From assembly GCA_031266455.1 (NCBI GenBank), contig JAISBA010000004.1, positions 9,814-73,813 of the forward strand: a stretch of 64,000 bases of DNA, read 5' to 3'. The notes under the pieces were generated by a model that saw only the letters and a program-made list of their open reading frames with translations, had not been told where the DNA came from and searched no databases. The DNA is from Puniceicoccales bacterium (GTDB lineage: Bacteria; Verrucomicrobiota; Verrucomicrobiia; Opitutales; UBA9783). Made by a program: the position numbers and the translations under genes. Shown here one piece after another: positions 17,984 to 38,315 of the stretch (positions are counted from its first letter, which is position 1; each line of letters begins with the position of its first letter).

Positions 17984-18628
17984 ATGTATACTTGTCATCA
18001 TATCTCTACGTTGGTTGGCCAAAAAGCCCCCAATTTTACCGCAAATGCGGTTATTAACGGTAATCAGATTGTTGAAAATTTTTCTCTAGAAAAGTATTTA
18101 GGGAATCAATACATCGTACTGTTCTTTTATCCAAAAGATTTCACATTTGTATGTCCCACCGAGCTGCACGCTTTCCAAAGAACCATAAAAGAGTTCGAAA
18201 ATCGGTCAACCCAGATCATCGCATGCTCTACCGACAGTGAATTCAGTCACTGGGCATGGTTGCAAATGCCTAAACAAGAAGGAGGCATTCAAGGCGTAAC
18301 TTACCCTATCGTTGCCGATGTTAACAAAACGATCACCAACGATTACGGAATTCTTGCAGGCACTTGTTATTACGACGAACAAGATCATTTGCAGGCGGAA
18401 GGAACATTGGTTGCCTATAGAGGCTTATTTCTCATCGATAAACAAGGTATCATTCAACACCAGATGGTTAATAATATGCCCTTGGGCCGTTCCGTATCAG
18501 AAACCTTGCGCGTGGTAGATGCGCTACAACATTTCGAAATGTGCGGAGAAGTGTGTCCCGTTAACTGGCACAAAGGTGAATCAGGCATACAACCAACCCA
18601 TGAAGATTTAAAAGACTTTTTTAGATAA
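17984..18628 (+). CDS. ahpC: Typical 2-Cys peroxiredoxin (AhpC/Prx family)
   Basis: Peroxidatic Cys motif DFTFVCPTEL and resolving Cys GEVCPVNW. Confidence 0.85.
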   Translation: MYTCHHISTLVGQKAPNFTANAVINGNQIVENFSLEKYLGNQYIVLFFYPKDFTFVCPTELHAFQRTIKEFENRSTQIIACSTDSEFSHWAWLQMPKQEGGIQGVTYPIVADVNKTITNDYGILAGTCYYDEQDHLQAEGTLVAYRGLFLIDKQGIIQHQMVNNMPLGRSVSETLRVVDALQHFEMCGEVCPVNWHKGESGIQPTHEDLKDFFR

Positions 18629-24424: not shown

Positions 24425-26959
24425 TCACATTTCAGAAGAAACCAACAGGGTATGAGAAAGATCCGATTGTAAATACACTTTGGATCGCTCAAAAAGTTCT
24501 TCTAAGGATACACTATCGATGGCTTTTGCATAATTCAACCAGGCATCTTGAGGTAAATCAAACAACTCATTGATGCCGGCGTAAAATGCCTTTTTGGCGA
24601 TTGTTTGCAAACGTGTTTGCTGGCTCACTTTAAGATGCGATCGACATAGGTCAAATTCTTTAGAAGATATCTGACGGTCCAAAACACGTTGCGTCGCTTT
24701 GAATATTTCTGCTTCAACTGTCTTCAAATGGGATGCCTGAGTACTTGCAAACAAACACAACATACCTCGATTTAATCCCGTTAAACGCGTGGCTCCAACC
24801 GTATAAGCCAAACCTAATTTCTCCCTGACTTCGATAACAAATTGGCTCGACAAGCCATTGAATAATTCTTCCAAATAGTCGGCCACATAATAGTCTTTTG
24901 AACCTATACCTGCCATTGGGTAAGCCTGGAAAACCATCGATTGCTCTTTGTTTAATTGGCATTCGCAGTACCGTTCGGAAGTAAAAAAGATTTCATCGGA
25001 CACTTTTTCAAAACAATTTTCCGAAATTCCATCACCGATGGGCTCCAATAATTTTATTAACTCATCCGTAGGCAGCGGACTGACCGCCGATATGACGCAA
25101 TTGGGGCCAACAAAAATTTTTCTAAAATAATGCCAACAGTGTTCCAATCGCAGCGCTTTTACGTCGTCCTCAATCCCATACTGACCTACGGCGTAGGGAT
25201 GTTGTCCAAAAAATTGATGACGCATTTTTTTAAATCCCACATAAAATACATCATCCATCATCTCCTGAATGGAAGCCAGTTGAGAAGCTTTTTCAATTTC
25301 AAATGTTTCCTCTTTAAATCGAGGCATACGCAGCGCTTCCCCCAATAAATGACATCCCATAGCCGTGTTTTGGGGTAAAGATTCAAAAGCCAATCCTATG
25401 TGATTAATCCCCGTAAAACTATTAAACTGGCCTCCTATGGCGTCAACGGCTTCCGCAATTTCACGTGCCGTATGCTTTTCGGTATCTTTCATCAACAAAG
25501 AAGCCACCAAATGCGAAATACCTCGTTGATGTTCCGGTTCGTACAAAGCCCCCCCCAAACTGAGTACCTGCACGTGCGTTTTTGGGAAAGATGGATTATA
25601 CTGCATCACCAAACGTACGCCATTGGGTAAGGTTATCGATTCCACAGGCTGCGTACGTATCTCCGTAGATTTTTTAAAAAAAACCTTTTCCAATGCTTTT
25701 GGCTCCAAAGATACTTTGGTGCAAGTTGCTGGCTTTAAATATTTGCTCACAATTGCCTTTACACTTTTTGCATCCAATTGTTTCAATTGTTCCAAATAGT
25801 GCTTCGAGTACTGCAGATCTCCCAGGCAGGTGTCAGCCCATCCTAAATGGTGAGCTTGCCCCGATACCGTTTTTTGAGTATCTATTTCCGATACAATTGC
25901 TTGCTTAAGCGCCTTCTGCACGTGCTTTGTTTCAATAGCTGCTTCCGCCATACACTGCAAATTTTTCGATAAAAATTCCTCCACGCAAGCACGTTTTTCT
26001 CCATCACATACGTACTGTATCCAAAATAATCCTTGATCAGCCATCCAGGTGGATACATCGATGGAATAAACGTATCTTAACTCTTCTCTCAATTTTTGAT
26101 ACAGCAGCGAGCTGTCACCGCAACCCAGTACATTGGATAAAACTTGTAACTTAGCTCCATCCTTGTGACCCAACCCTGGAATTTTAAATGCCAACACTCC
26201 ACGTACCAATTGGTAGTCTCCATAAAAACGTTCCACCCTTTCCGCCATTTGGAAAGGTTCTCGAGTAATTAAAACCGGTTGCAAACTTTTTGGCAAACAG
26301 GTGGAAAAATAATGATTCACCCTTTCTTGAATCCATTCAAACGACAAATTACCCACAATAACCAACGTCATGTTATTGATGGGATAGCGCTTACGCCAGT
26401 ATTCAACCAAATCTTCACGCGTCAATTGTTCAAAAATACTTTTAATGCCGATGATGGGGAATCGATAGGGATGCTTACGAAATGCGTTTTCAAATACCAC
26501 TTGATTGAGTCGATCCTCCGGATCATCGTTGCACATGTCGATCTCACGCAAAATCACCTTTTTTTCCTTAAGCATTTCTTCGGATGGAAATGTGGGATGC
26601 AACAGCATATCGCTTAAAATATCCAAACCCAATTCCGCAGATTCCGATGAACCATCGTAAGTATAAACGGTTCTATCAAACGACGTGTAGGCATTGAGAC
26701 TGGCTCCCGAGGCTTGTGCTTCCGAAAAGATATCCGCGTACGTACGCCGCTCCGTCCCTTTAAAAACCATATGTTCCACAAAATGAGAAATACCCGCACC
26801 CAAATATTTGTCTTCGTGAATACTGCCTGTTTTTACCCACGCTTGAATTGCAACCAAACCGGTGTGATCAACGGGTAAAAAAATGACCTTGAGTCCATTG
26901 GAAAGTGCAAAGCAACACGGATGATAGATCAAAAATTCTTCAAATGAACACATATCCAA
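24425..26959 (-). CDS. M16-family zinc peptidase, double (fused active + inactive M16 halves)
   Basis: HxxEH zinc motif in ISHFVEHMVFKGT, then EREVILREI-like KEKKVILREI. A second half has a degenerate site (ISHLVASLLMKDT). The track start is TTG at 26959, and ATG at 26953 is an alternative. Confidence 0.8.
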   Translation of the reverse strand: MDMCSFEEFLIYHPCCFALSNGLKVIFLPVDHTGLVAIQAWVKTGSIHEDKYLGAGISHFVEHMVFKGTERRTYADIFSEAQASGASLNAYTSFDRTVYTYDGSSESAELGLDILSDMLLHPTFPSEEMLKEKKVILREIDMCNDDPEDRLNQVVFENAFRKHPYRFPIIGIKSIFEQLTREDLVEYWRKRYPINNMTLVIVGNLSFEWIQERVNHYFSTCLPKSLQPVLITREPFQMAERVERFYGDYQLVRGVLAFKIPGLGHKDGAKLQVLSNVLGCGDSSLLYQKLREELRYVYSIDVSTWMADQGLFWIQYVCDGEKRACVEEFLSKNLQCMAEAAIETKHVQKALKQAIVSEIDTQKTVSGQAHHLGWADTCLGDLQYSKHYLEQLKQLDAKSVKAIVSKYLKPATCTKVSLEPKALEKVFFKKSTEIRTQPVESITLPNGVRLVMQYNPSFPKTHVQVLSLGGALYEPEHQRGISHLVASLLMKDTEKHTAREIAEAVDAIGGQFNSFTGINHIGLAFESLPQNTAMGCHLLGEALRMPRFKEETFEIEKASQLASIQEMMDDVFYVGFKKMRHQFFGQHPYAVGQYGIEDDVKALRLEHCWHYFRKIFVGPNCVISAVSPLPTDELIKLLEPIGDGISENCFEKVSDEIFFTSERYCECQLNKEQSMVFQAYPMAGIGSKDYYVADYLEELFNGLSSQFVIEVREKLGLAYTVGATRLTGLNRGMLCLFASTQASHLKTVEAEIFKATQRVLDRQISSKEFDLCRSHLKVSQQTRLQTIAKKAFYAGINELFDLPQDAWLNYAKAIDSVSLEELFERSKVYLQSDLSHTLLVSSEM

Positions 26960-27019
26960 CTTATTTCATTGTCTCAAAAAAAGCCACTCCTGTAAAGTTG
27001 AAAACCTCCTTTTATAATT

Positions 27020-27053
27020 CAAAAAATAAACCCTACGTGTTCTCGTAGGGTTT
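27020..27053 (-). terminator. Rho-independent terminator downstream of the 139-aa Cys/His-rich gene
   Basis: The minus-strand transcript reads AAACCCTACG-AGAACA-CGTAGGGTTT followed by ATTTTTT. This is a perfect 10-bp stem (27028-27037 / 27044-27053) starting 21 nt after the stop codon. Confidence 0.75.
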
Positions 27054-27073
27054 ATAAATTTTGTAAGTCTTCG

Positions 27074-27493
27074 TTACCTATTCGGGCAATCCGGCGTGTG
27101 CACCATTCCTTGTCCTGTGAATATCATTGGACAATGTGGACAATGGTGACTGCGATCAGGATCATTCGGGCAATTTGGACCATGACCTCTTGACATAGGA
27201 ACATGACAATACGGACAATCACGATCAGGATCATTCAGGCAATCCGGCATATGGTTTCCTTCTATCATACCACAATGTGGGCACATCGCATGAGGATCAT
27301 TCGGACAACCCGGCATATGATTTCCCATTGACATGGGAACGTGGCAATGTGGACACATCGCATAAGGATTTTGAGGGCAATCCCATTCATCGTGCCCTTC
27401 TTGACCACAATGCGGACATACTACAGCCAGTCCCGGTAATGTCGCCATTAATTTAAATGCAATTAAACAAAGATATTTTTTCATGCAGTTCAT
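27074..27493 (-). CDS. Cys/His-rich tandem CX2C...H...C (zinc-knuckle-like) protein with putative signal peptide, 5 units
   Basis: The 139-aa ORF starts MNCMKKYLCLIAFKLMATLPGLAVV. Five units follow: CPHCGQEGHDEWDC (exact CX2CX4HX4C), CPHCHVPMSMGNHMPGC, CPHCGMIEGNHMPDC, CPYCHVPMSRGHGPNC, CPHCPMIFTGQGMVHTPDC. It ends in CPNR. Two paralogues lie at 33.6 and 34.1 kb. Its own terminator and a conserved upstream region support a real gene. The start is ATG 27493 or ATG 27484 (MKKYL). Confidence 0.7.
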   Translation of the reverse strand: MNCMKKYLCLIAFKLMATLPGLAVVCPHCGQEGHDEWDCPQNPYAMCPHCHVPMSMGNHMPGCPNDPHAMCPHCGMIEGNHMPDCLNDPDRDCPYCHVPMSRGHGPNCPNDPDRSHHCPHCPMIFTGQGMVHTPDCPNR

Positions 27494-27560
27494 CTTGTTA
27501 ACTTTTTTAATATTAGCAAGCTTTTTGTTAATCTTTTTTATAAATTACTTTTACTAAATT
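27494..27560 (-). repeat. Conserved upstream (promoter-bearing) segment 'P' of the Cys/His-rich gene family, copy A
   Basis: Copy A reads cttgttaacttttttaatattagcaagctttttgttaatcttttttataaattacttttac. It recurs at about 85-90% identity by eye at 33777-33840 and 35610-35670. It contains TATAAA on the gene strand. Confidence 0.7.
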
Positions 27561-30712: not shown

Positions 30713-31003
30713 CTATAAAACCCGTGGGACTACAATTTGTTTTTCTTTCATTTCCGGAGCGTTGCGAGATAAAAAATCAACGCCATCTTCGGGGTATTCC
30801 GGAATATCTTCGGCCCAAAAATTACCCTCGTGAGAAAAAGAATGCACCCTCGGTTCTAAATTTTCCACACCTGCTTCGCATACCTTTGAACAGTATCCAA
30901 CAATATCTTGCAATTGATTTAAAAACGTTTCACGCTTATGCCCGTCGAGCTCAATACGGGCTAACTTAGCCAAATGATCGATATCGATCTCCGAATGCAT
31001 CAT
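30713..31003 (-). CDS. gatC: Asp/Glu-tRNA amidotransferase subunit C
   Basis: 96 aa with IDHLAKLARIEL (GatC N-terminal pattern). It sits immediately upstream of gatA, and its start overlaps the pheT stop by 4 nt. Confidence 0.85.
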   Translation of the reverse strand: MMHSEIDIDHLAKLARIELDGHKRETFLNQLQDIVGYCSKVCEAGVENLEPRVHSFSHEGNFWAEDIPEYPEDGVDFLSRNAPEMKEKQIVVPRVL

Positions 31004-33414
31004 ACAGCCTGCTTTCTTATTTGATAGGTATAATCTTTTTCCAAACAGCCCTGCAATTTTTCAAAAACATCGTTCACTTGCTCATCCGTCAGGGTTCCCA
31101 TATGTGAATCAAATACGAGTGAAAATGCAAGACTTTTTTTCTTACTATGTGTCGTATCATAGAAAACGTCAAAAATGTTTACACATTTCAATTGCATCGG
31201 ATGTTGCATGATTTTTCGAACCGATTTTTCAATATTTTGGCGCACCGCCTCAGCCAATGTATCCGCGTCTACCAACAGAGCTAAGTCCTTACGCACAGCG
31301 GGGTATTCCGAATAGATCTGAAACCATTTGTGATCTTTTATGTGTAGTTTGTCAGGCATCCAACAACATTCGCCCGCCAAAACAACCGCTTCTTTAAACC
31401 ATCGACGCGTAAAATTTAAATTCACGTATCCAAAATTGGCTTCAAAGCCGCGCTGTTCCCATGCACCTACGTTTCCGGCGTAATCTTTCTGCCACAAGGC
31501 ATCCACCTGTTTTGTAGTACTTTGCATTACTTCGTTCGTCCCCCCACAAGCCACCATCATCGAACGCACCCATGCCTGCGCATCGTAAAAGTCAAATGAA
31601 GGGACTTCCTTCCACCGTTTAACGTCGGCCGGACATACCACGAACGCACTCGCAAACAACTCGCATAATTGGCCATCCTTTTGAACTCGGAATATGCGGC
31701 CCGATTCAAATAAACGTTCCACATCGTTGCCGTGGTGTCTGTTATCGCACAAAGCATTCAACAGTCCCGGAATGAGAGAAAAACGTAAACATGCATGCTC
31801 AGCACTTAACGGATTGAATACCTTCAATGCTTCTTTCGGTATTAAATTTTCGCCCAAAGAAGCCGGTTGCAAACTATCCGTGTAGCATTCTAAAAATCCG
31901 TGTGCGGATAAAAGTTGCGCGTGTCTCTTTTTCAAGAGATATGTATTTGAAGTACTCAGGCAACATGCGGGACCTTCAGGCATTTTAGAAGGGATAGAGT
32001 CGGTTCCAAACAAACGCAGAAACTCTTCAACCAAATCCACTCCCTGCGCAACATCGGCCCGATGGGTAGGGATTGCTACTTCCCAATGTTCATTGTCACA
32101 AGGTACAACCTCAAAACCTAATTTTTTTAGGGTGTCGACAAAAAATTTCGGATCCACATGAAAACCTAACAATCTTTCCACCTGAGAAAATTCAAATTTT
32201 ACTTTACGCAACGAAACGGCATCGGATCCCGCAACCACACACTGCTCGCATACAATTTTATCGTCCATGGATAACAATAATTGGACGGCCCTGCACAAAG
32301 CTTCTCGCGCATGCGTTTTATCCACGTAGCGTTCAAAGCGGTAGGAGCTATCTGAACTTAAATCCAATTTGCGAGAGGACATGCGTATACTATCCGCTTG
32401 AAAATGAGCACTTTCCAAAAAAACAGTCGTTGTGGTTGTTTTAATTTCACTTTCCTCACCTCCCATAATACCCGCAATCGCTAATGGCTTATCGCGGTCT
32501 GCAACAAGTAAAGTATTTTCCGGCAAAGACCTCGTAACTCCATCCAACGTTCTAATACATTCTCCCATACGCGCACCCCGTACACAAATACGATCCCCGC
32601 GTATGAGATCCCAATCAAAAGCGTGTAACGGTTGACCTCTTTCCAAGAGTACAAAATTGGTCACATCGACCACGTTATTAACGGGACGTAAGCCCACCGA
32701 TTGCAGTGTATTTTTCAACCAATCCGGACTAGGCCCTACGTGCACGTTTTTCAAAAGGCAACCCGCATAATAATCGCATCCATCCGAATTGAGTTCCACC
32801 GATATATTTTTTATGGGAGGCAAATCCAGCAAACATTCGGGATAAATAATGGGTAAATCCAGCGCAGCACTCAATTCTCTCGCTATTCCCAAATAACTTA
32901 AACAATCCCCACGATTTGAGGTAATGGATAGATCCATAACCGTATCGCTTTGATCCACAAAAAGCTTTGCCAAAGGCTCTCCCACATTTGGATGCAAGTC
33001 ATTGAGAATGTACAAACCTGCACTCTCCTTACCCAACCCCAATTCGTTGGCACTGCACATCATACCGCAAGATTCAACATCTCGTATGCGTGTCTTTTTT
33101 AAAAGGGTCTCTCCCAATTGCGCACCCGGTAAAGCAACGGGGACCACATCTCCTTCTTTAAAATTTGTCGCTCCGCAAACAATTTGCAACGAACGATTTC
33201 GCCCAATATCTACCTCACAAACACTTAGTCGATCGGCATGGGGATGTTTTTCCTTTTTTAGAACACGACCTACAACCAAATCACCCTTGCCGCAATATCC
33301 AATCGCCTCCACATTTTCTACTTCGAAACCCAGTCCTATCAAGATTTCGCACAATTCCATCGAAGACTGCTTAAAATGGACATACCATCTTAAGGTATTT
33401 AAAGCGATTTTCAT
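31000..33414 (-). CDS. pheT: Phenylalanine--tRNA ligase beta subunit
   Basis: 804 aa. It has an N-terminal tRNA-binding (EMAP/OB) domain with VVGRVLKKEKHPHADRLSVCEVDIG, B3/4 and B5 regions, and a C-terminal FDX-ACB-like domain. No pheS is adjacent. Confidence 0.9.
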   Translation of the reverse strand: MKIALNTLRWYVHFKQSSMELCEILIGLGFEVENVEAIGYCGKGDLVVGRVLKKEKHPHADRLSVCEVDIGRNRSLQIVCGATNFKEGDVVPVALPGAQLGETLLKKTRIRDVESCGMMCSANELGLGKESAGLYILNDLHPNVGEPLAKLFVDQSDTVMDLSITSNRGDCLSYLGIARELSAALDLPIIYPECLLDLPPIKNISVELNSDGCDYYAGCLLKNVHVGPSPDWLKNTLQSVGLRPVNNVVDVTNFVLLERGQPLHAFDWDLIRGDRICVRGARMGECIRTLDGVTRSLPENTLLVADRDKPLAIAGIMGGEESEIKTTTTTVFLESAHFQADSIRMSSRKLDLSSDSSYRFERYVDKTHAREALCRAVQLLLSMDDKIVCEQCVVAGSDAVSLRKVKFEFSQVERLLGFHVDPKFFVDTLKKLGFEVVPCDNEHWEVAIPTHRADVAQGVDLVEEFLRLFGTDSIPSKMPEGPACCLSTSNTYLLKKRHAQLLSAHGFLECYTDSLQPASLGENLIPKEALKVFNPLSAEHACLRFSLIPGLLNALCDNRHHGNDVERLFESGRIFRVQKDGQLCELFASAFVVCPADVKRWKEVPSFDFYDAQAWVRSMMVACGGTNEVMQSTTKQVDALWQKDYAGNVGAWEQRGFEANFGYVNLNFTRRWFKEAVVLAGECCWMPDKLHIKDHKWFQIYSEYPAVRKDLALLVDADTLAEAVRQNIEKSVRKIMQHPMQLKCVNIFDVFYDTTHSKKKSLAFSLVFDSHMGTLTDEQVNDVFEKLQGCLEKDYTYQIRKQAV

Positions 33415-33422
33415 GCCTCGAA

Positions 33423-33451
33423 AGTAAAATCTTTGAGAACAATTTTGTCAA
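33423..33451 (-). promoter_or_regulatory. Candidate sigma70-type promoter for pheT-gatCAB (TTGACA-N17-TTTACT)
   Basis: The minus strand reads cgcgTTGACAaaattgttctcaaagatTTTACTttcgaggcATG. The -35 is a perfect consensus and belongs to repeat U. The -10 is weak (4/6) and lies only 8 nt from the ATG, implying a near-leaderless mRNA. Sequence-pattern call only. Confidence 0.3.
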
Positions 33452-33494
33452 CGCGAATTTAAATTGTAAACTATTCGAAAATTTCCTAATCAAC
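33445..33494 (-). repeat. Repeat 'U' copy 1 (50 bp); other copies at 33843-33894 and 35675-35726
   Basis: Copy 1 is ttgtcaacgcgaatttaaattgtaaactattcgaaaatttcctaatcaac. Copy 3 is ttgtcaacgcgaatttaaatcgtaaactattcgaaaatttcccaatcaac. Copy 2 is ttgtcaacgtgaatttaaatcgcaaaccactcgaaagttttccaatcaat. Confidence 0.85.
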
Positions 33495-33533
33495 TAAAAA
33501 ACACTCCTGTACAGTTGAAAACCTCTCTATAAT

Positions 33534-33567
33534 TCAAAAAACAAACCCTACAAAAGATGTAGGGTTT
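33534..33567 (-). terminator. Rho-independent terminator downstream of the frameshifted Cys/His-rich paralogue
   Basis: The minus strand reads AAACCCTACA-TCTTT-TGTAGGGTTT followed by GTTTTTT. It is the homologue of the 27020-27053 hairpin, with a compensated stem change (G:C to A:T). Confidence 0.7.
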
Positions 33568-33589
33568 ATAAATCTTGTAAGCCTTCACA

Positions 33590-33776
33590 TTACCTATTCG
33601 GGCAACCAGGCCTATGATGTCCTCCACGTTCACCACACTGTGAGCACATACGATCAGGACAAATTGCTTTCATTATGCCCATCGTGACCACAATAGGGAC
33701 ATGTCATAGCCATTCCTGGCAGTGTCGCCATTAATTTAAATGCAACTAAATAAAGATATTTTTTCATATGGCTCAT
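33590..33776 (-). pseudogene. Frameshifted two-unit paralogue of the Cys/His-rich zinc-knuckle-like family
   Basis: My translation gives (MSH)MKKYLYLVAFKLMATLPGMAMTCPYCGHDGHNESNLS* and then, in another frame, CPDRMCSQCGERGGHHRPGCPNR*. Removing one T from the run at 33661-33663 (gene strand AATTTG) restores CPYCGHDGHNESNC, an exact CX2CX4HX4C unit, and one continuous ORF. The length is not a multiple of 3. Confidence 0.7.
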
Positions 33777-33819
33777 TCTGTTAATCTTTTTAATATTAGC
33801 AAGCTTTCTATTAATCTTT

Positions 33820-33849
33820 TTTATAGATTACTTTTTACTTACTTGTCAA
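33820..33849 (-). promoter_or_regulatory. Candidate promoter TTGACA-N18-TATAAA of the frameshifted paralogue
   Basis: On the minus strand, TTGACA is at 33849..33844 and TATAAA at 33825..33820. The spacing and boxes are the same as the 35652-35681 copy. Confidence 0.45.
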
Positions 33850-33894
33850 CGTGAATTTAAATCGCAAACCACTCGAAAGTTTTCCAATCAATTT

Positions 33895-33954
33895 CTACCA
33901 ACGAATACGAACACATCCATTCTGACCCACTAAACGTTCTTGCGTCTTGTAATC
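33895..33954 (-). pseudogene. 60-bp fossil copy of the 3' end of the 35727-37625 gene
   Basis: The reverse complement translates to DYKTQERLVGQNGCVRIRW*. The intact gene ends DYKTQERLAGQNGCVRIRW*. It directly follows repeat U copy 2, as in the intact locus. Confidence 0.85.
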
Positions 33955-34040
33955 AATTGGGAAAAATGACCTAGTCCACTGGAAAATGTAAAACAATACG
34001 GGTTATAGGTCAAAAATTCTTCAAACGAACATACGTCCAA
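33951..34040 (-). pseudogene. About 90-bp fossil copy of the 5' end of the M16 peptidase gene (source 26868-26959)
   Basis: The reverse complement TTGGACGTATGTTCGTTTGAAGAATTTTTGACCTATAACCCGTATTGTTTTACATTTTCCAGTGGACT... matches M16 TTGGATATGTGTTCATTTGAAGAATTTTTGATCTATCATCCGTGTTGCTTTGCACTTTCCAATGGACT... The ATG is lost (ATATGT to GTATGT) and there are indels further in. Confidence 0.8.
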
Positions 34041-34112
34041 CTTGTTTTATTGTCTCAAAAAAACCAGTACTGTACAGCTAAAAACCTCCTTTTATAAATT
34101 TTGTAAGCCTTA

Positions 34113-34511
34113 TTACCTATTCGGACACCTAGGCTTATGGTTTCCTCCAAATTTACCACACTGCGGACACTTCGAATTCGGGTGAGTACAATCTCTTGCA
34201 TTATGGTTTCCTTCACAATATGGACATGTATAGCGAGAACACCTAGGCTTATGGTTTCCTCCAAATTTACCACACTGCGGACACATCGAATTTAGATGAA
34301 TACAAGCTCTTGCATCATGGATTTTTCCACAATATGAACATGTAAAGCGAGGACACCTAGGCATATGGTTTCCTCCAAGTTTACCACACTGCGGACACTT
34401 TGAATTCGGATGGACACAAAATTCTGCAGCATGTGTTCCTCCACAATATGGACATGTATAGCGAGAACACCTAGGCTTATGGTTTCCTCCAAATTCAAAA
34501 CACTCTGGACA
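34113..34511 (-). repeat. Intragenic tandem repeat, 114-bp (38-aa) period, about 3.5 copies
   Basis: The protein units are CPECFEFGGNHKPRCSRYTCPYCGGTHAAEFCVHPNSK, CPQCGKLGGNHMPRCPRFTCSYCGKIHDARACIHLNSM, CPQCGKFGGNHKPRCSRYTCPYCEGNHNARDCTHPNSK and CPQCGKFGGNHKPRCPNR*. The DNA motif acacctaggcttatggtttcctccaaatttaccacactgcggaca recurs every 114 bp. Confidence 0.9.
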
Positions 34512-35546
34512 CATCGAATGGACGCAAACTCCCGCAGCATGCCTTTCTTGATCACAATATGGGCATATATAATGAGGACAACAGGGCATATGTCCAACTT
34601 CACCGCACTGCGGACACATGTAGCCCGGACTATTTGGACAATCCGGCCTATGGTTTCTTCCAAATTCACCACACTGCCGACACTTACTTATTGGACAATC
34701 GAACACATGAAATCCTGCCATGGGCCTAAGGCAATGCGGACACATGGGCTCACCGTAGTATGGGTAAATCGGACACCCGCGCACATGAGGTCCTGTCATG
34801 AGAACACGACAATGCGGACATATGGACACCTTGTCGTGTAGGCAGCTCGGACACCCGGATGCATGAGGTCCTGCCATGGGAATATGACAACTCGAACACA
34901 TGGACACATTGTAGTATGGGCAATCGGGCGTATGAGGTCCTGTCATGGGCTCAAGGCAATGCGGACATTCGCGATTAGGATCATTCGGACAATCCGGTAT
35001 ATGTCTTTCCGATATGGGAACATGACAACGCCGACACATGAGCACATTGTAGTATGGGCAATCGAGCGCATGAGGTCCTGTCATGGGCTCAAGACAATGC
35101 GGACATTTGCGATTAGGATCATTCGGGCAATCCGGTATATGACTTCCCAATATAGGAATATTACACTGCTGGCATATCGGATTAGGATAATCAGGACAAT
35201 CTCTTACATTATGAATTTCTCCACAATGTGAACATGTACAGTCAGGACAAGCAGGCCAATGGTTTCCTCCAGATCTACCACAGTACGAACATCTTGAACA
35301 AGTATTCATTCTTTCATGATCTTTCGGATATTCATAGGAAAGATAATCGGACCTATGGCTTTTATAGGAAAGACAATTGAAACTATAGCTTTCTTTATGG
35401 CCACCACAGTGCGAACATCTTGCATTTGGATGGGCACAATCCCTTGCCTCATGCCCTCTTTGACCACAATACGGACACGCATAGTTAGGACAACAGTGCT
35501 TATGGTTAGGTACACATTCACCACAATGCGGACATACTTCAGCCAT
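34113..35546 (-). CDS. Giant Cys/His-rich array of about 24 CX2C...H...C zinc-knuckle-like units (477 aa); leader start codons lost, possibly decaying or cytoplasmic
   Basis: The intact 477-codon ORF has 72 Cys by my hand count. It includes exact CX2CX4HX4C units (CPYCGQRGHEARDC), CX2CX6HX3C units (CPQCGKFGGNHKPRC) and CX2CX7HX3C units (CPHCLEPMTGPHALDC). It ends in CPNR like both paralogues. The region homologous to the signal peptide is in frame upstream but both ATGs are ATA. Confidence 0.6.
   Translation of the reverse strand: MAEVCPHCGECVPNHKHCCPNYACPYCGQRGHEARDCAHPNARCSHCGGHKESYSFNCLSYKSHRSDYLSYEYPKDHERMNTCSRCSYCGRSGGNHWPACPDCTCSHCGEIHNVRDCPDYPNPICQQCNIPILGSHIPDCPNDPNRKCPHCLEPMTGPHALDCPYYNVLMCRRCHVPISERHIPDCPNDPNRECPHCLEPMTGPHTPDCPYYNVSMCSSCHIPMAGPHASGCPSCLHDKVSICPHCRVLMTGPHVRGCPIYPYYGEPMCPHCLRPMAGFHVFDCPISKCRQCGEFGRNHRPDCPNSPGYMCPQCGEVGHMPCCPHYICPYCDQERHAAGVCVHSMCPECFEFGGNHKPRCSRYTCPYCGGTHAAEFCVHPNSKCPQCGKLGGNHMPRCPRFTCSYCGKIHDARACIHLNSMCPQCGKFGGNHKPRCSRYTCPYCEGNHNARDCTHPNSKCPQCGKFGGNHKPRCPNR
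34899..35174 (-). repeat. Intragenic tandem repeat, 138-bp (46-aa) period, 2 copies
   Basis: CQQCNIPILGSHIPDCPNDPNRKCPHCLEPMTGPHALDCPYYNVLM is followed by CRRCHVPISERHIPDCPNDPNRECPHCLEPMTGPHTPDCPYYNVSM. The C..CHVP.S..H.P.CPNDP signature is shared with the 139-aa paralogue. Confidence 0.9.
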
Positions 35547-35651
35547 TCCTGGCAGTGTCGCTATTAATTCAAATGCAACTAAATAAAGATACCTTTTTAT
35601 GCCGTCTATTTTGTTAGCTTTTCTAATATTAGTAAGCTTTTTGTTAATCTT

Positions 35652-35681
35652 TTTATAAATTATTTTTTACTTATTTGTCAA
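35652..35681 (-). promoter_or_regulatory. Candidate promoter TTGACA-N18-TATAAA upstream of the 477-aa Cys/His-rich gene
   Basis: The minus strand reads cgcgTTGACAaataagtaaaaaataattTATAAAaag. The -35 is at 35681..35676 and the -10 at 35657..35652. It is conserved in the 33.8-kb copy. Confidence 0.45.
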
Positions 35682-35726
35682 CGCGAATTTAAATCGTAAA
35701 CTATTCGAAAATTTCCCAATCAACTT

Positions 35727-37625
35727 CTACCAACGAATACGAACACATCCATTCTGACCCGCTAAACGCTCTTGCGTCTTGTAATCCTTTTGTCCATTAC
35801 CTCCATTTCCAAATTGACCTAACATAGCAACCTGCTGCCCGGCATAATGACTCTCACTACCCCTTGTTGCCGGTACACCCATAGCTCCTCCATCACAACG
35901 AATTTCCAAAGAATGAACGTGGACCGTAGTTGCCTCACCTGCAGCTAGCTCTGAGGCTTGCCCGACATGGATGGAAACAATACCTCCACTTTGTACACCC
36001 TCGATTTTCTCCATTCTAAAAGTACCCGAACCTCCACCGTTTCCACTGATGCTAAAATCCGTCAAATATTGTACATCGAGATAGATTCTCATATTTTTTT
36101 GCGATTTTGTCCTCGCATCCATCTTTGACATCCAACTGTTCTCATTTACTTGATTCTCTGTAACGTTATGAGAAAAAGAAACACCGTAAGAATAGACGTA
36201 GTCTTTCTGTTTTCTGTCATTGTATATCATGTTTAATACAAAATTTCTAGTTTCCTTATCTTTAAGTTCCACGCATTGATTAAATCGAGGTAGGTTATGA
36301 GGGTTATCAGTTCTATAGACCAAAAATTCATTACTTGTTGCTGGAAACCTACTCATACGGCCGGTAACATTGGTGATGCGCGCTGGACCTGTCACATATA
36401 TAGGTGTTTTAGACCATATCCATCCTCTCCATGAATGATATTCTAAATTTAAATCACTCGTCTGTTCCACTGGGGTCCCCCAATCCCGATATTGTAAAGC
36501 AGGACTACCGCTTCCGCCTGCACCGATCGCTTCAATCGTAATGGTATGCACGCCTTCCGGAATCGCCCAAAAGTATTTCCCGGGCTGATCAAAAACAACT
36601 TGCCCATGATTTTGTTCGACAACAATATCGGTTGCTTCACAAACATCCTCCTCCATTGATATTTTAAGATCTTCCAACAAATGATCGTACGCTTCACTAC
36701 ATTTGTGCAATTTTTCTAGTTCACACGCAACATTTTGCTCGCGCATGGAAACGTACAACCAAAGTGTAAAAAAAGAATCTACATCGATGCAAAAATGCTT
36801 GTCTTTACAATTACACCACGTGACGTGTGGAGAGAACAAATTTAAATAAGGTTCGCAAAGGGGGTCCAAACGTTGCATTAATTTAACAACGTTACTCGCA
36901 ACATCATCAAATTCGGATAACCGCCTAAAGGCATCCCATGCAATATGACTTATCTTAAGTTTAGCTGAAAACTTGCAAGGGATGAGGATAAAAGTAGAAG
37001 ACTTACACATCAAAGGAAAAGACCAGGTATCGGTTGGGTGCAAAGATAAATCACCGCATTTATCCATAAGCAGATCATTAAAAAAATGCGCCGTGTAGTT
37101 CAGAACATTTAGGAAATCAGCTGCGGATAATAATGAAAGCGCTTCCATTAAGTGCTGTCGATGCGCCCGTATCGGTTCAATAAAATACTGATTCCAAATA
37201 TCGTGCACATTTTGGATATCTTTTTGCGTAATATCCAATGGAAGCCCTACTAAACAATCTTCGTTATCCTGATAGGCATAATGTTGTAACACGCAGTCAG
37301 GTTGCTTTATCAGATGTGGTAATGTGTGCTGAAAATAGGGATATCCCCATACATAATTGGCAATGCTACCACACACCCAATAACTCCCAAACTGAACGGC
37401 AAATGGGGGCGGAGATTTGTATTTTCGGTACAAATTCAGAACGTTCGGCAATTCTTCTGCGGAAAAAGACTTTCTACAAAAAATTTCTGCAGGAATGTAT
37501 AAAAAACCTTTATCTTTTTGATTATTTGAATCTTTTAAAACAAAAGTCGGACAATGGGGAAATGCAAACAGCATTTCGGTAGCCAAACACAAAGCTACAG
37601 TAAAACATTTACTGTACTTAAACAT
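35727..37625 (-). CDS. Hypothetical exported protein; unknown N-terminal about 340 aa plus C-terminal region with GAGGSGS / GNGGGSG / GNGGNG glycine clusters
   Basis: 632 aa. The N-terminus MFKYSKCFTVALCLATEMLFAF is hydrophobic and leader-like. The C-terminal part contains GKYFWAIPEGVHTITIEAIGAGGSGS, FSISGNGGGSGTF and GQFGNGGNGQ, and ends GQNGCVRIRW. This pattern is reminiscent of glycine-rich beta domains of phage, viral or surface fibre proteins. I recognised no catalytic motif. Confidence 0.6.
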   Translation of the reverse strand: MFKYSKCFTVALCLATEMLFAFPHCPTFVLKDSNNQKDKGFLYIPAEIFCRKSFSAEELPNVLNLYRKYKSPPPFAVQFGSYWVCGSIANYVWGYPYFQHTLPHLIKQPDCVLQHYAYQDNEDCLVGLPLDITQKDIQNVHDIWNQYFIEPIRAHRQHLMEALSLLSAADFLNVLNYTAHFFNDLLMDKCGDLSLHPTDTWSFPLMCKSSTFILIPCKFSAKLKISHIAWDAFRRLSEFDDVASNVVKLMQRLDPLCEPYLNLFSPHVTWCNCKDKHFCIDVDSFFTLWLYVSMREQNVACELEKLHKCSEAYDHLLEDLKISMEEDVCEATDIVVEQNHGQVVFDQPGKYFWAIPEGVHTITIEAIGAGGSGSPALQYRDWGTPVEQTSDLNLEYHSWRGWIWSKTPIYVTGPARITNVTGRMSRFPATSNEFLVYRTDNPHNLPRFNQCVELKDKETRNFVLNMIYNDRKQKDYVYSYGVSFSHNVTENQVNENSWMSKMDARTKSQKNMRIYLDVQYLTDFSISGNGGGSGTFRMEKIEGVQSGGIVSIHVGQASELAAGEATTVHVHSLEIRCDGGAMGVPATRGSESHYAGQQVAMLGQFGNGGNGQKDYKTQERLAGQNGCVRIRW

Positions 37626-38315
37626 GCAGAGCTATCATTTTTTAACAAAAAACTTTTTGTCAACTCCTAAAGTTATTAAAAATATTTCAAAAGATAGCTT
37701 TGCCATCGATATTGGTGCACACACAGGAGATACAACCGTTCCTATGGCTATTGCCACTGGATATTAATACTCGGGCTAGAACCCAATCCATACGTTTTTA
37801 AAATTTTGGAACGTAATTCACAACTCAATAAAAATCTTGCGCAGATCATTCCACTGTGCTCTGCTGCCACTTTAGAAAACGGGACATTTGAATTTAACTA
37901 CTCCGATGCGTCTTTTTGTAATGGAGGATTTTTATCTAAAATTCAGACAAAATCCCATCATCATTCTCATAAATTAACGGTAAAAGGCATAAATCTTTCA
38001 ACTTATTTAAATGAAAATATGAAAGCGTACTTACCAAAGTTAAATTTCGTTAAAGTCGATACGGAAGGATACGACAAAGATGTCTTATTGAGTTTAACCC
38101 ATATTATAAAAAGCTATCGTCCCATTATTATGGCAGAGTGTTACAAACGTTTAACAAAAGAAGAACGTTTCTCACTATTTAACATTTTTGAAGATTTTGG
38201 TTCTTACAAACTATTCAAATTAGATGACAATGGTCACGTTTCAACCATTCACATTCCGTCGGGGGAAATGATGCTGAGTGAACCACATTTCAATTTTATC
38301 GCTCTACCCGAGTGA
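37624..38315 (+). pseudogene. FkbM-family methyltransferase, frameshifted (two reading frames)
   Basis: Frame A from ATG 37624 reads MQSYHFLTKNFLSTPKVIKNISKDSFAIDIGAHTGDTTVPMAIATGY* with a stop at 37765. Frame B, open from 37698, reads ...ILILGLEPNPYVFKILERNSQLN...VKVDTEGYDKDVLLSL... The motifs DIGAxxGdtt, EPnP and K.D.EG.E...L are the FkbM methyltransferase pattern. The shift lies near 37759-37765. Confidence 0.7.

What the first reader, a model, noticed from the sequence alone, without database searches (positions are those of the whole stretch)
33415..35726. Mosaic of segmental duplications carrying fossils of two unrelated genes records how the cassette spread
Reading left to right, the region between pheT and the 632-aa gene is built as follows:
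- U1 (33445-33494).
- T, the terminator-bearing 3' flank (33495-33589).
- The short paralogue.
- P, the promoter segment.
- U2 (33843-33894).
- 60 bp identical in reading to the last 19 codons plus stop of the 632-aa gene (33895-33954, one A to V change).
- About 90 bp copied from the first codons of the M16 peptidase gene 7 kb away (33951-34040, start ATG destroyed).
- T' (34041-34112).
- The large paralogue.
- P, then U3 (35675-35726).
- The intact 632-aa gene.

At the 27-kb locus the order is M16 5' end, T, 139-aa gene, P.

The simplest reading is that a block containing the M16 start, flank, Cys/His gene and promoter was copied from the M16 locus into the 3' flank of the 632-aa gene. The Cys/His gene plus P plus U unit was then duplicated again in tandem. 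The junction at 33950-33955 shares only about 4 bp (aatc/gatc), which points to illegitimate recombination.

I see no transposase, integrase or inverted repeats, so the copying mechanism is unexplained.
Basis: seen in the sequence. Interest (0 to 1): 0.7.

Follow-up and report, generated by a model that had tools for sequence, protein, structure and literature searches.

The report
Gene block copied into neighbouring spacer
In this one bacterial lineage a small Cys/His-rich gene, with its flanks and the start of the next gene, was copied 7 kb away into a short spacer and then copied again, leaving dead gene fragments at the joins; this is an ordinary but unusually legible segmental duplication with no mobile element.

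Summary
All modules (U x3, 5' flank P x3, 3' flank T x3, a 60-nt copy of the 632-aa gene's end, a ~110-nt copy of the M16 leader plus first ~27 codons) are recovered by BLAST at 81-97% identity. The window comes from a Puniceicoccales MAG. Five related assemblies have the 632-aa gene followed by a single U and then pheT, so their site is empty. Seven relatives carry a Cys/His gene between gatB and M16. The gatB-M16 locus is therefore the donor, and the pheT-side copies are specific to this lineage. The 632-gene fossil carries substitutions found only in this lineage, so it postdates the split. An independent assembly matches 10.3 kb at 100%, confirming two of the four joins. Copies share no exact match longer than 36 nt, which argues against a chimera. 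One join shows a 3-nt microhomology. Both cassette copies share one identical U|P join, and each is bracketed by a direct repeat of the target (112 and 52 nt). No transposase, integrase or terminal inverted repeats were found. I propose illegitimate recombination or template switching plus homology-guided re-copying; the order of steps is unresolved. It is well documented but of a known kind.

The parts
33445..33496 (-). U1: copy of the native 632-pheT spacer segment. It is contiguous with the native 30-nt pheT-proximal spacer (33415-33444) and carries the invariant GTTGACAA (-35-like).
   Evidence: It differs from U3 at 3 of 52 positions. The motif is invariant across the three U copies and four relatives (L001-L004), and was also read in L005.
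33497..33589 (-). T: 3' flank of the short paralogue, copied from locus A up to the T-run before the M16 leader. It holds an intrinsic-terminator hairpin at 33541-33569.
   Evidence: (hairpin -19.3 kcal/mol, z -3.0)
33590..33776 (-). Short Cys/His paralogue, frameshifted. The 40-aa ORF 33654-33776 keeps the signal-peptide-like N-terminus and one knuckle. The last knuckle plus stop (33590-~33690) read in another frame.
   Evidence: P0006 is the same ORF called from the later ATG
33777..33842 (-). P (short copy): conserved 5' flank of the Cys/His gene
33843..33894 (-). U2: most diverged U copy (7 of 52 differences from U3, all transitions). It is joined to P at the same point as U3.
33895..33954 (-). 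E': fossil of the last 19 codons plus stop of the 632-aa gene. It has 2 transitions (one A to V) and carries the lineage-specific ACGC state.
33955..34040 (-). Fossil of the first ~27 codons of the M16 peptidase gene. ATG is changed to GTA and two 2-nt deletions break the frame. The join to E' lies at the GAT microhomology, 33952-33954.
34041..34112 (-). T': M16 leader plus the 3' flank of the large paralogue. The terminator hairpin was removed by a 38-nt deletion between TTATAAA direct repeats.
   Evidence: (no structure, z +0.8)
34113..35546 (-). Large Cys/His paralogue, a 477-aa ORF with 72 Cys, 41 His and about 21 CxxC..H..C units. It was enlarged by internal tandem repeats of 114 nt (x3.5), 78 nt (x2.9) and 138 nt (x2).
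35547..35610 (-). Remnant of the signal-peptide-like coding segment of the large paralogue. Both ancestral ATG codons now read ATA.
35611..35674 (-). P (large copy): conserved 5' flank
35675..35726 (-). U3: the U copy directly after the stop codon of the 632-aa gene
35727..37625 (-). Intact 632-aa gene with no Pfam family, restricted to this lineage. Its last 60 nt are the source of E'.
26875..27556 (-). Donor block at locus A. It comprises P (27494-27556), the 139-aa Cys/His gene (27074-27493), T with a terminator hairpin at 27026-27055 (26977-27073), and the M16 leader plus first ~27 codons (26875-26976).
31000..33414 (-). pheT, the gene downstream of the insertion site

Best explanation
This is a lineage-specific ectopic segmental duplication with no mobile element.

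**Ancestral state (shown by outgroups).** Locus A read gatB - P - Cys/His gene - T - M16. Locus B read 632-aa gene - 83-nt spacer - pheT.

**Copying from A to B.** In the ancestor of this MAG, about 0.7 kb of locus A was copied in the same orientation into locus B. The block held P, the Cys/His gene, T, the M16 leader and the first ~27 M16 codons. The entry point is a few nt after the invariant TTGACAA of the spacer.
- The block containing the large paralogue is bracketed by a 112-nt direct repeat of the target (60 nt of the 632-gene end plus U).
- The block containing the short paralogue is bracketed by a 52-nt repeat (U).
- Both blocks share one identical U|P join. The second block was therefore generated from the first through homology, not by an independent insertion.

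**Inferred mechanism.** I propose replication template switching or illegitimate recombination at zero to few-nt homologies. GAT is shared at the M16|632 join, and at most 1-2 nt at T|U1. One homology-guided step (unequal exchange, or a switch within U/P/the gene) added the second unit. Few substitutions are shared by the two B copies to the exclusion of locus A. This suggests the steps were close in time, possibly one complex event.

**Later changes (shown).**
- Internal repeat expansion produced the 477-aa gene.
- The T' terminator was deleted between 7-nt repeats.
- The large copy lost both start codons.
- The short copy acquired a frameshift.
- The two fossils decayed.

**Functional reading (inferred).** U probably carries the pheT promoter. 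Only products that restored a U copy in front of the essential pheT would have survived, which would explain the long 'target duplications'. U3 and U2 may now feed transcription into the cassette copies. The large gene has no terminator, so its transcript should read through the fossils to the hairpin at 33541-33569.
For: - **Repeats.** They are real and restricted to the two loci.
- **Empty site.** L001-L005 have only a single U between the 632-aa gene and pheT.
- **Donor locus.** The Cys/His gene, with homologous P and T, lies between gatB and M16 in L002-L008.
- **Timing.** E' shares the window-specific AAGACGCAAGA, against AAGGTGAAAGA or AATGTGAATGA in relatives.
- **M16 fossil.** It keeps ancestral states where the live M16 gene has since changed.
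- **Joins.** Three-way comparisons define each join. The U|P join is identical in U2 and U3.
- **Independent assembly.** A Logan assembly of run SRR14710922 equals window 33922-23628 at 100% over 10,295 nt. It begins 30 nt into the 36-nt exact E/E' repeat, where a short-k-mer (about k=31) de Bruijn assembler would be expected to break; Logan's k-mer size is my recollection, not a tool result.
- **Exact matches.** The longest exact match between copies is 36 nt, and 54 nt inside the large gene.
- **No mobile-element signs.** No inverted repeats bracket the blocks. There is no Rfam hit. Flanking genes in relatives' precomputed Pfam gene lists are housekeeping and collinear, and window ORFs match them, with a subset checked by Pfam.
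- **Promoter candidate.** GTTGACAA is invariant in U across the three U copies and L001-L004, and was also read in L005.
- **Terminators.** A hairpin is present in T and at locus A and absent in T'.
- **Large ORF.** It is probably maintained. P(no stop) is 0.03 to 0.0001 under 5-13% neutral drift, and every Cys and His is kept among the 38-aa repeats.
Against: - **Mechanism.** It is inferred from junction anatomy only. After 13-19% divergence, the microhomology at U|P and T|U1 cannot be read reliably.
- **Order of steps.** It is unresolved. Shared derived sites conflict: big+short share 1-4, while locus A+short share 2 in T.
- **U2.** It matches more distant outgroups at 3-4 sites where U1, U3 and the nearest relatives agree. 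This could hint at an older origin or be homoplasy.
- **Unconfirmed joins.** T'-M16 fragment and M16 fragment|E' are not covered by the independent contig.
- **Regulatory roles.** The promoter roles of U and P, and read-through of T', are untested. The consensus scan found no canonical promoter in P on the gene strand.
- **Expression.** The large gene lacks a canonical start for its signal-peptide segment and is absent from the protein databases searched, so it may not be expressed.
Confidence: 0.8

Rival explanations
1. Assembly chimera. The mosaic would be produced by mis-joining reads from repeated Cys/His loci or from co-occurring strains in the metagenome.
For: The source is a short-read MAG. 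The region is repeat-rich, with 114-nt repeats at 84-89% identity. Only two of the four joins are confirmed by the second assembly.
Against: The copies are 81-87% identical, with no exact match longer than 36 nt between them. That is too short to confuse assembly at the large k-mer sizes I would expect for such a MAG; this window's assembler and k-mer settings were not checked. An independent assembly reproduces E'(part)-U2-P-short-T-U1-pheT through M16 at 100% over 10.3 kb. The fossils have decayed through indels and start-codon loss, which mis-joined live genes would not show.
Confidence: 0.03
2. The insertion is ancestral to the whole group. The five relatives would then have lost it precisely by homologous recombination between the flanking U repeats, so the 'empty sites' are secondary.
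For: U-U recombination would restore exactly the spacer seen in relatives. U2 shows outgroup-like states at 3-4 sites. The P copies form a star with the orthologues (80-86% all round).
Against: This needs at least 2-5 independent precise losses, with no relative retaining any trace. E' carries three substitutions specific to this lineage's 632-aa gene, so at least that join postdates the split. The U2 similarities are all transitions at variable sites, so homoplasy is plausible.
Confidence: 0.07
3. The cassette was moved by a mobile-element mechanism acting in trans. Candidates are an IS or composite transposon, an integron-type cassette, IS91/ISCR rolling-circle one-ended transposition, or a retro-copy of a transcript.
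For: The block resembles a transcription unit with read-through into the next gene, as one-ended or transcript-based copying might give. The rest of the genome is not visible from this window.
Against: No transposase, integrase or reverse-transcriptase gene was identified at locus B or in the roughly 12-kb collinear stretch on either side of the two loci in relatives' precomputed Pfam gene lists; window ORFs match those lists and only a subset was scanned directly. No terminal inverted repeats or attC-like palindrome lie at the block ends. The flanking repeats are 52 and 112 nt of native target, not a short duplication of fixed length. In seven relatives the gene stays at one locus. The copy includes about 65 nt upstream of the start codon and has no poly-A or intron-type signature.
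Confidence: 0.04

Closest known systems
Bacterial segmental or tandem duplication by RecA-independent illegitimate recombination or replication template switching at microhomologies (the class called FoSTeS/MMBIR in eukaryotes)
   Same: It is a same-orientation copy of a nearby segment. One join has 3 nt of homology and another has at most 1-2 nt. The insert is bracketed by a duplicated stretch of the target. No element-encoded machinery is present, and partial genes are left at the joins.
   Different: The donor and acceptor lie 7 kb apart, rather than forming a head-to-tail duplication. The product has two units with different ends, which requires an extra homology-guided step. The mechanism is inferred from old, diverged joins (13-19% divergence), not observed.
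Unequal homologous exchange or gene amplification between short direct repeats
   Same: The second cassette shares the identical U|P join and is flanked by U repeats. This is what an exchange or template switch within U/P homology would produce.
   Different: A pure unequal exchange would give identical unit ends. Here one unit ends T'-M16 fragment-E' and the other ends T|U1.
Repeat-protein gene families that expand by internal tandem duplication in host-associated bacteria
   Same: The 477-aa paralogue grew through 114-, 78- and 138-nt in-frame repeats. dN/dS between repeats is about 1 outside the fixed Cys/His positions.
   Different: There is no evidence here of phase variation, of a large family, or of any host association. 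The family has one locus in each relative examined.
CCHC zinc knuckle (CX2CX4HX4C; retroviral nucleocapsid and CNBP type)
   Same: The first unit of every homologue fits the spacing, for example CPHCGQEGHDEWDC. There are weak sequence matches to HIV NCp7 (E 0.3-0.65) and to a eukaryotic RRM+CCHC protein (E 4e-4).
   Different: Pfam zf-CCHC_4 scores 9 bits, far below its cutoff of 27. Most units have other spacings (CX2CX3-8HX3-4C). The proteins begin with a signal-peptide-like segment. The AF2 model is too poor to compare.

Membership tests
Segmental duplication by illegitimate or microhomology-mediated recombination | An identifiable donor segment elsewhere in the same genome, in the same order and orientation | tested here: met
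   Locus A 26875-27556 matches both B blocks module by module.
Segmental duplication by illegitimate or microhomology-mediated recombination | Relatives have an empty acceptor site and an occupied donor site | tested here: met
   The acceptor site is empty in L001-L005. The donor site is occupied in L002-L008.
Segmental duplication by illegitimate or microhomology-mediated recombination | Novel joins with zero to a few nt of homology between the parental sequences | tested here: met
   GAT is shared at M16|E'. At most 1-2 nt are shared at T|U1. U|P is unreadable after divergence.
Segmental duplication by illegitimate or microhomology-mediated recombination | The joins are physically present in the DNA and are not an assembly product | tested here: inconclusive
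   U2|P and T|U1 are confirmed by an independent assembly at 100% identity. M16|E' and T'-M16 are supported only by lack of long exact repeats.
Insertion sequence or transposon | A transposase gene within or next to the moved segment | tested here: not met
   The only ORFs in the block are the Cys/His genes. Neighbours are pheT, gatCAB, M16, the 632-aa gene, an FkbM remnant and the ribosomal operon. This is based on relatives' precomputed gene lists plus Pfam on a subset of window ORFs.
Insertion sequence or transposon | Terminal inverted repeats and a short target-site duplication of fixed length | tested here: not met
   No inverted repeats lie at the block ends. The flanking direct repeats are 52 and 112 nt of native sequence.
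Integron gene cassette | An attC recombination site at the cassette end and an intI/attI platform | tested here: not met
   The 3' flank holds only a terminator hairpin shared with the donor locus. U has no structure beyond shuffles. No integrase was identified nearby.
CCHC zinc-knuckle proteins (Pfam zf-CCHC family group) | A match to the family profile above the curated cutoff | tested here: not met
   zf-CCHC_4 scores 9.4 bits against a cutoff of 27. The 477-aa protein has no Pfam hit even at E<=10.
CCHC zinc-knuckle proteins (Pfam zf-CCHC family group) | CX2CX4HX4C spacing | tested here: inconclusive
   1 of 4 units in the 139-aa protein and 2 of about 21 in the 477-aa protein have the canonical spacing. 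The rest vary.
CCHC zinc-knuckle proteins (Pfam zf-CCHC family group) | Zinc binding and the knuckle fold | not testable with these tools
   The AF2 model has a mean pLDDT of 53, too low for a fold search.

The most novel reading that the evidence does not exclude
The whole mosaic arose in a single replication accident with several template switches (B to A, A back to B upstream, then B back within B). It survived only because each product kept a copy of the pheT promoter (U) in front of the essential pheT. That would make it a bacterial example of a complex, MMBIR-like rearrangement filtered by promoter retention. It also wired a pheT promoter copy to a new, rapidly expanding secreted Cys/His repeat protein. 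If these MAGs are protist-associated Verrucomicrobia, that protein could be a host-directed nucleic-acid- or metal-binding effector.
Probability: 0.12. Interest if true: 0.5.

Novelty: new member of a known kind. Interest (0 to 1): 0.27.

Why it matters
This is a clean natural example in which the donor, the acceptor, the empty site in relatives and all the joins of an ectopic bacterial gene duplication can be read directly. It includes dead pieces of two bystander genes, which fix the direction of copying.

It shows how a small orphan gene family can start to grow without any mobile element. It also shows how long 'target duplications' may be imposed by the need to keep an essential downstream gene (pheT) behind its promoter.

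It does not reveal a new mechanism. Its value is as a worked case, and as a pointer to an uncharacterised Cys/His-repeat protein family confined to this Puniceicoccales lineage.

Tried and rejected
- **Metagenome scan with the 632-aa protein.** It found no relatives.
- **Second metagenome scan.** A degenerate DNA pattern for the conserved signal-peptide region gave 0 matches. No intermediate states were found that way.
- **Protein search with the 477-aa paralogue.** There were no hits, not even itself. An exact-product look-up was also empty, as it was for the 632-aa protein.
- **Family searches.** Pfam returned nothing usable for the Cys/His proteins or the 632-aa protein. Solved-structure matches were only weak and non-significant for knuckles. 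Rfam over 26-38.5 kb returned nothing relevant.
- **Structure prediction.** AF2 of the 139-aa protein with a 4-sequence alignment gave pLDDT 53, so no fold search was run.
- **Ordering the two copying steps.** Counting shared derived substitutions gave too few and conflicting sites.
- **Gene conversion.** I tested whether E' is anomalously similar to E compared with U2 versus U3. The counts were 2/60 against 7/52, Fisher p = 0.08, which is not significant, so I dropped the claim.
- **U as a structured RNA or terminator.** Rejected, because its folds are no better than shuffles.
- **Literature.** Searches for the source of the MAGs gave no direct description. Any link to termite-gut protist symbionts remains my unverified guess from the isolate names.


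Full report
**Observation**

All genes in the region lie on the minus strand. Read in gene direction, locus B runs as follows:
- the 632-aa gene (37625-35727)
- U3 (35726-35675)
- P (35674-35611)
- a degenerate signal-peptide segment (35610-35547)
- the 477-aa Cys/His ORF (35546-34113)
- T' (34112-34041)
- the M16 fossil (34040-33955)
- E', a copy of the last 60 nt of the 632-aa gene (33954-33895)
- U2 (33894-33843)
- P (33842-33777)
- the short, frameshifted Cys/His gene (33776-33590)
- T (33589-33497)
- U1 (33496-33445)
- the native 30-nt spacer
- pheT (33414-31000)

Locus A runs gatB, P (27556-27494), the 139-aa gene (27493-27074), T (27073-26977), the M16 leader, and M16 (from 26953).

Self-BLAST recovers every module at E values from 1e-18 to 1e-85, and only at these two loci. 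The U and P cores each occur three times, against zero expected. E' differs from the live 3' end by two transitions, one of which changes A to V. The M16 fossil has ATG changed to GTA and two 2-nt deletions.

**Refinements**

- T' is not a terminator-bearing flank. A 38-nt deletion between two TTATAAA direct repeats removed the hairpin, which is present in T (33541-33569, z -3.0) and at locus A (27026-27055).
- The short paralogue is a pseudogene, or at best a 40-aa product.
- In the large paralogue, both ATG codons used by intact homologues (M-x-x-M/V/I-KKYLYL...) now read ATA. The only canonical start lies after the signal-peptide-like segment.
- P is a conserved 5' flank in eight lineages, but the consensus scan finds no sigma-70-type site in it on the gene strand. 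Calling it a 'promoter' is therefore an inference.

**Where the window comes from, and what relatives show**

- The 632-aa protein is found only in a few Puniceicoccales (Verrucomicrobiota) MAGs. The window's own copy is LBJ78_00795.
- In five related assemblies (L001-L005), 80-89% identical for this protein where reported (L001-L004), the gene is followed after 74-84 nt by pheT. That spacer is a single U plus the pheT-proximal 30 nt.
- In seven relatives (L002-L008), a Cys/His gene of 45-130 codons with homologous P and T sits between gatB and M16.
- Locus A is therefore ancestral, and both B cassettes are specific to this lineage.
- E' and the live 632-gene end share AAGACGCAAGA, where all relatives have AAGGTGAAAGA or AATGTGAATGA. 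The copy therefore postdates the split.
- The M16 fossil retains ancestral bases at sites where the live M16 gene has since changed.
- Neither fossil corresponds to a real gene in any relative.

**Is it an assembly artefact?**

- Copies are 81-87% identical. The longest exact match between them is 36 nt (the E/E'-U boundary), and 54 nt inside the large gene.
- A Logan assembly of run SRR14710922 (L009) is 100% identical to window 33922-23628 over 10,295 nt. It starts 30 nt into that 36-nt exact repeat, where I would expect a short-k-mer (about k=31) de Bruijn assembler to break; the k-mer size is my recollection of the Logan pipeline, not a tool result.
- This confirms the U2|P and T|U1 joins independently.
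- The M16|E' and T'-M16 joins still rest on the one assembly.

**Joins and mechanism**

Three novel joins exist.
1. **U|P.** It lies a few nt after the invariant TTGACAA and is the same in U2 and U3, so it was formed once.
2. **M16 fragment|E'.** The parents share GAT (33954-33952). GATCAC and GATTAC match at 5 of 6 positions.
3. **T|U1.** It lies at the T-run that precedes the M16 leader. The parents share at most 1-2 nt.

The block with the large gene is bracketed by a 112-nt direct repeat of the target (E+U). The block with the short gene is bracketed by a 52-nt repeat (U).

No inverted repeats bracket either block. U folds no better than shuffles. There is no Rfam match. No transposase or integrase gene was identified among the neighbouring genes: relatives' precomputed Pfam gene lists are collinear housekeeping genes, and window ORFs match them in length and order, with a subset checked directly by Pfam.

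The minimal history is one ectopic copying event from A into B, making two illegitimate joins, plus one event that re-used existing homology and made the third join. Two orders fit the structure.
- The T'-M16 fragment-E' block came first, and a second unit was then re-copied through U homology.
- A P-gene-T block with a U duplication came first, followed by a duplication that detoured through locus A.

Shared derived substitutions are too few and conflict. Big+short share 1-4 sites, and locus A+short share 2 in T. The P copies form a star with the orthologues. I therefore leave the order open. I note only that the steps were close in time and fairly early in this lineage's separate history.

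The mechanism I propose is replication template switching or illegitimate recombination, followed by a homology-guided exchange. It is inferred from the anatomy, not shown.

**Functional reading (inference)**

U contains the only strongly conserved motif of the native spacer, GTTGACAA. It is invariant in the alignment of all three U copies and relatives L001-L004 and was also read in L005. U is probably part of the pheT promoter.

An insertion between this motif and pheT would probably be harmful unless a U copy were restored in front of pheT. This may be why the surviving products carry long 'target duplications'.

U3 and U2 now sit upstream of the two cassette copies. Because T' has no hairpin, transcripts of the large gene should run through the fossils, U2, P and the short pseudogene to the terminator at 33541-33569.

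**The cargo**

- The proteins begin with a signal-peptide-like segment (MxxMKKYLYLxAFKLMATLPGMA). They then consist of CxxC...H...C units. Cys plus His make up 22-24% of residues, and the large gene has about 21 units.
- The first unit fits the CX2CX4HX4C knuckle spacing. There are weak matches to retroviral NCp7 and to a eukaryotic CCHC protein.
- No Pfam model reaches its cutoff, and the AF2 model is unusable.
- The large gene grew by in-frame tandem repeats of 114, 78 and 138 nt.
- Between the 38-aa repeats, dN/dS is about 1, yet every Cys and His is kept.
- An uninterrupted 477-codon ORF is unlikely under neutral drift (P 0.03-0.0001). The gene is probably, or was until recently, under selection, despite losing its ancestral start codons.

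**Comparison with known systems, and verdict**

This is a member of a well-known kind: segmental gene duplication by illegitimate recombination with later divergence, repeat expansion and pseudogenisation. It fails the defining tests for IS or transposon insertion and for integron cassettes.

Its merit is legibility. The donor, the acceptor, the empty site and the fossils of two bystander genes all survive. Interest is modest.

Noticed in passing
window 37806-38315 (+): A 169-aa ORF matches only the C-terminal part of an FkbM-type methyltransferase (Methyltransf_21). At the same position in relatives, on the strand opposite the 632-aa gene as here, the gene is 278 aa (L002 9065-9901, L005 1115-1951). 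In this lineage it looks like a truncated remnant.
   Followed up: partly
L003 10001-11930; L004 10001-11907; L005 2051-3993: The 632-aa orphan gene is split into two ORFs in three relatives (389+314, 463+170 and 416+224 aa). It is intact in the window, L001 and L002. It has no Pfam family and is known only from this lineage.
   Followed up: no
L002 17905-17935; L003 17920-18100; L004 17900-17945: The locus-A Cys/His genes of three relatives are each disrupted near the 5' end, in a different way in each: a 7-nt duplication, ATG to ACG plus a later frameshift, and a 2-nt deletion. In L005, L006 and L007 the gene is intact. Either the family is decaying repeatedly, or these are assembly errors in A/T runs.
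   Followed up: partly
window 27026-27055; L002 ~18135-18165; L004 ~18345-18375; L007 ~2960-2990: The loop of the terminator hairpin after the Cys/His gene is inverted between relatives. GTATTCTC in L004 is the reverse complement of GAGAATAC in L002, and GTATTTTC in L007 is the reverse complement of GAAAATAC in L003. The stem is unchanged. This is a hairpin-loop flip.
   Followed up: no
window 33843-33954 vs 35675-35786: All 9 differences between E'-U2 and E-U3 are transitions. The decaying copies also show a strong transition excess overall (16 ts to 5 tv in the T'/M16 fossil).
   Followed up: partly
proteins P0008, P0010: The nearest non-family hits are long proteins with many CPECGGxxGKHKxxCSKY repeats behind an unrelated N-terminal domain (E 1e-6 to 3e-4). 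Their origin is unknown. This looks like a separate Cys/His repeat family with a similar unit.
   Followed up: no
window 34113-35546: The 477-aa ORF is absent from both protein collections searched, and no gene with this product is on record. The MAG's locus tags, by my count, leave room for only one feature between pheT and the 632-aa gene. It was probably not called, or was called as a pseudogene.
   Followed up: partly
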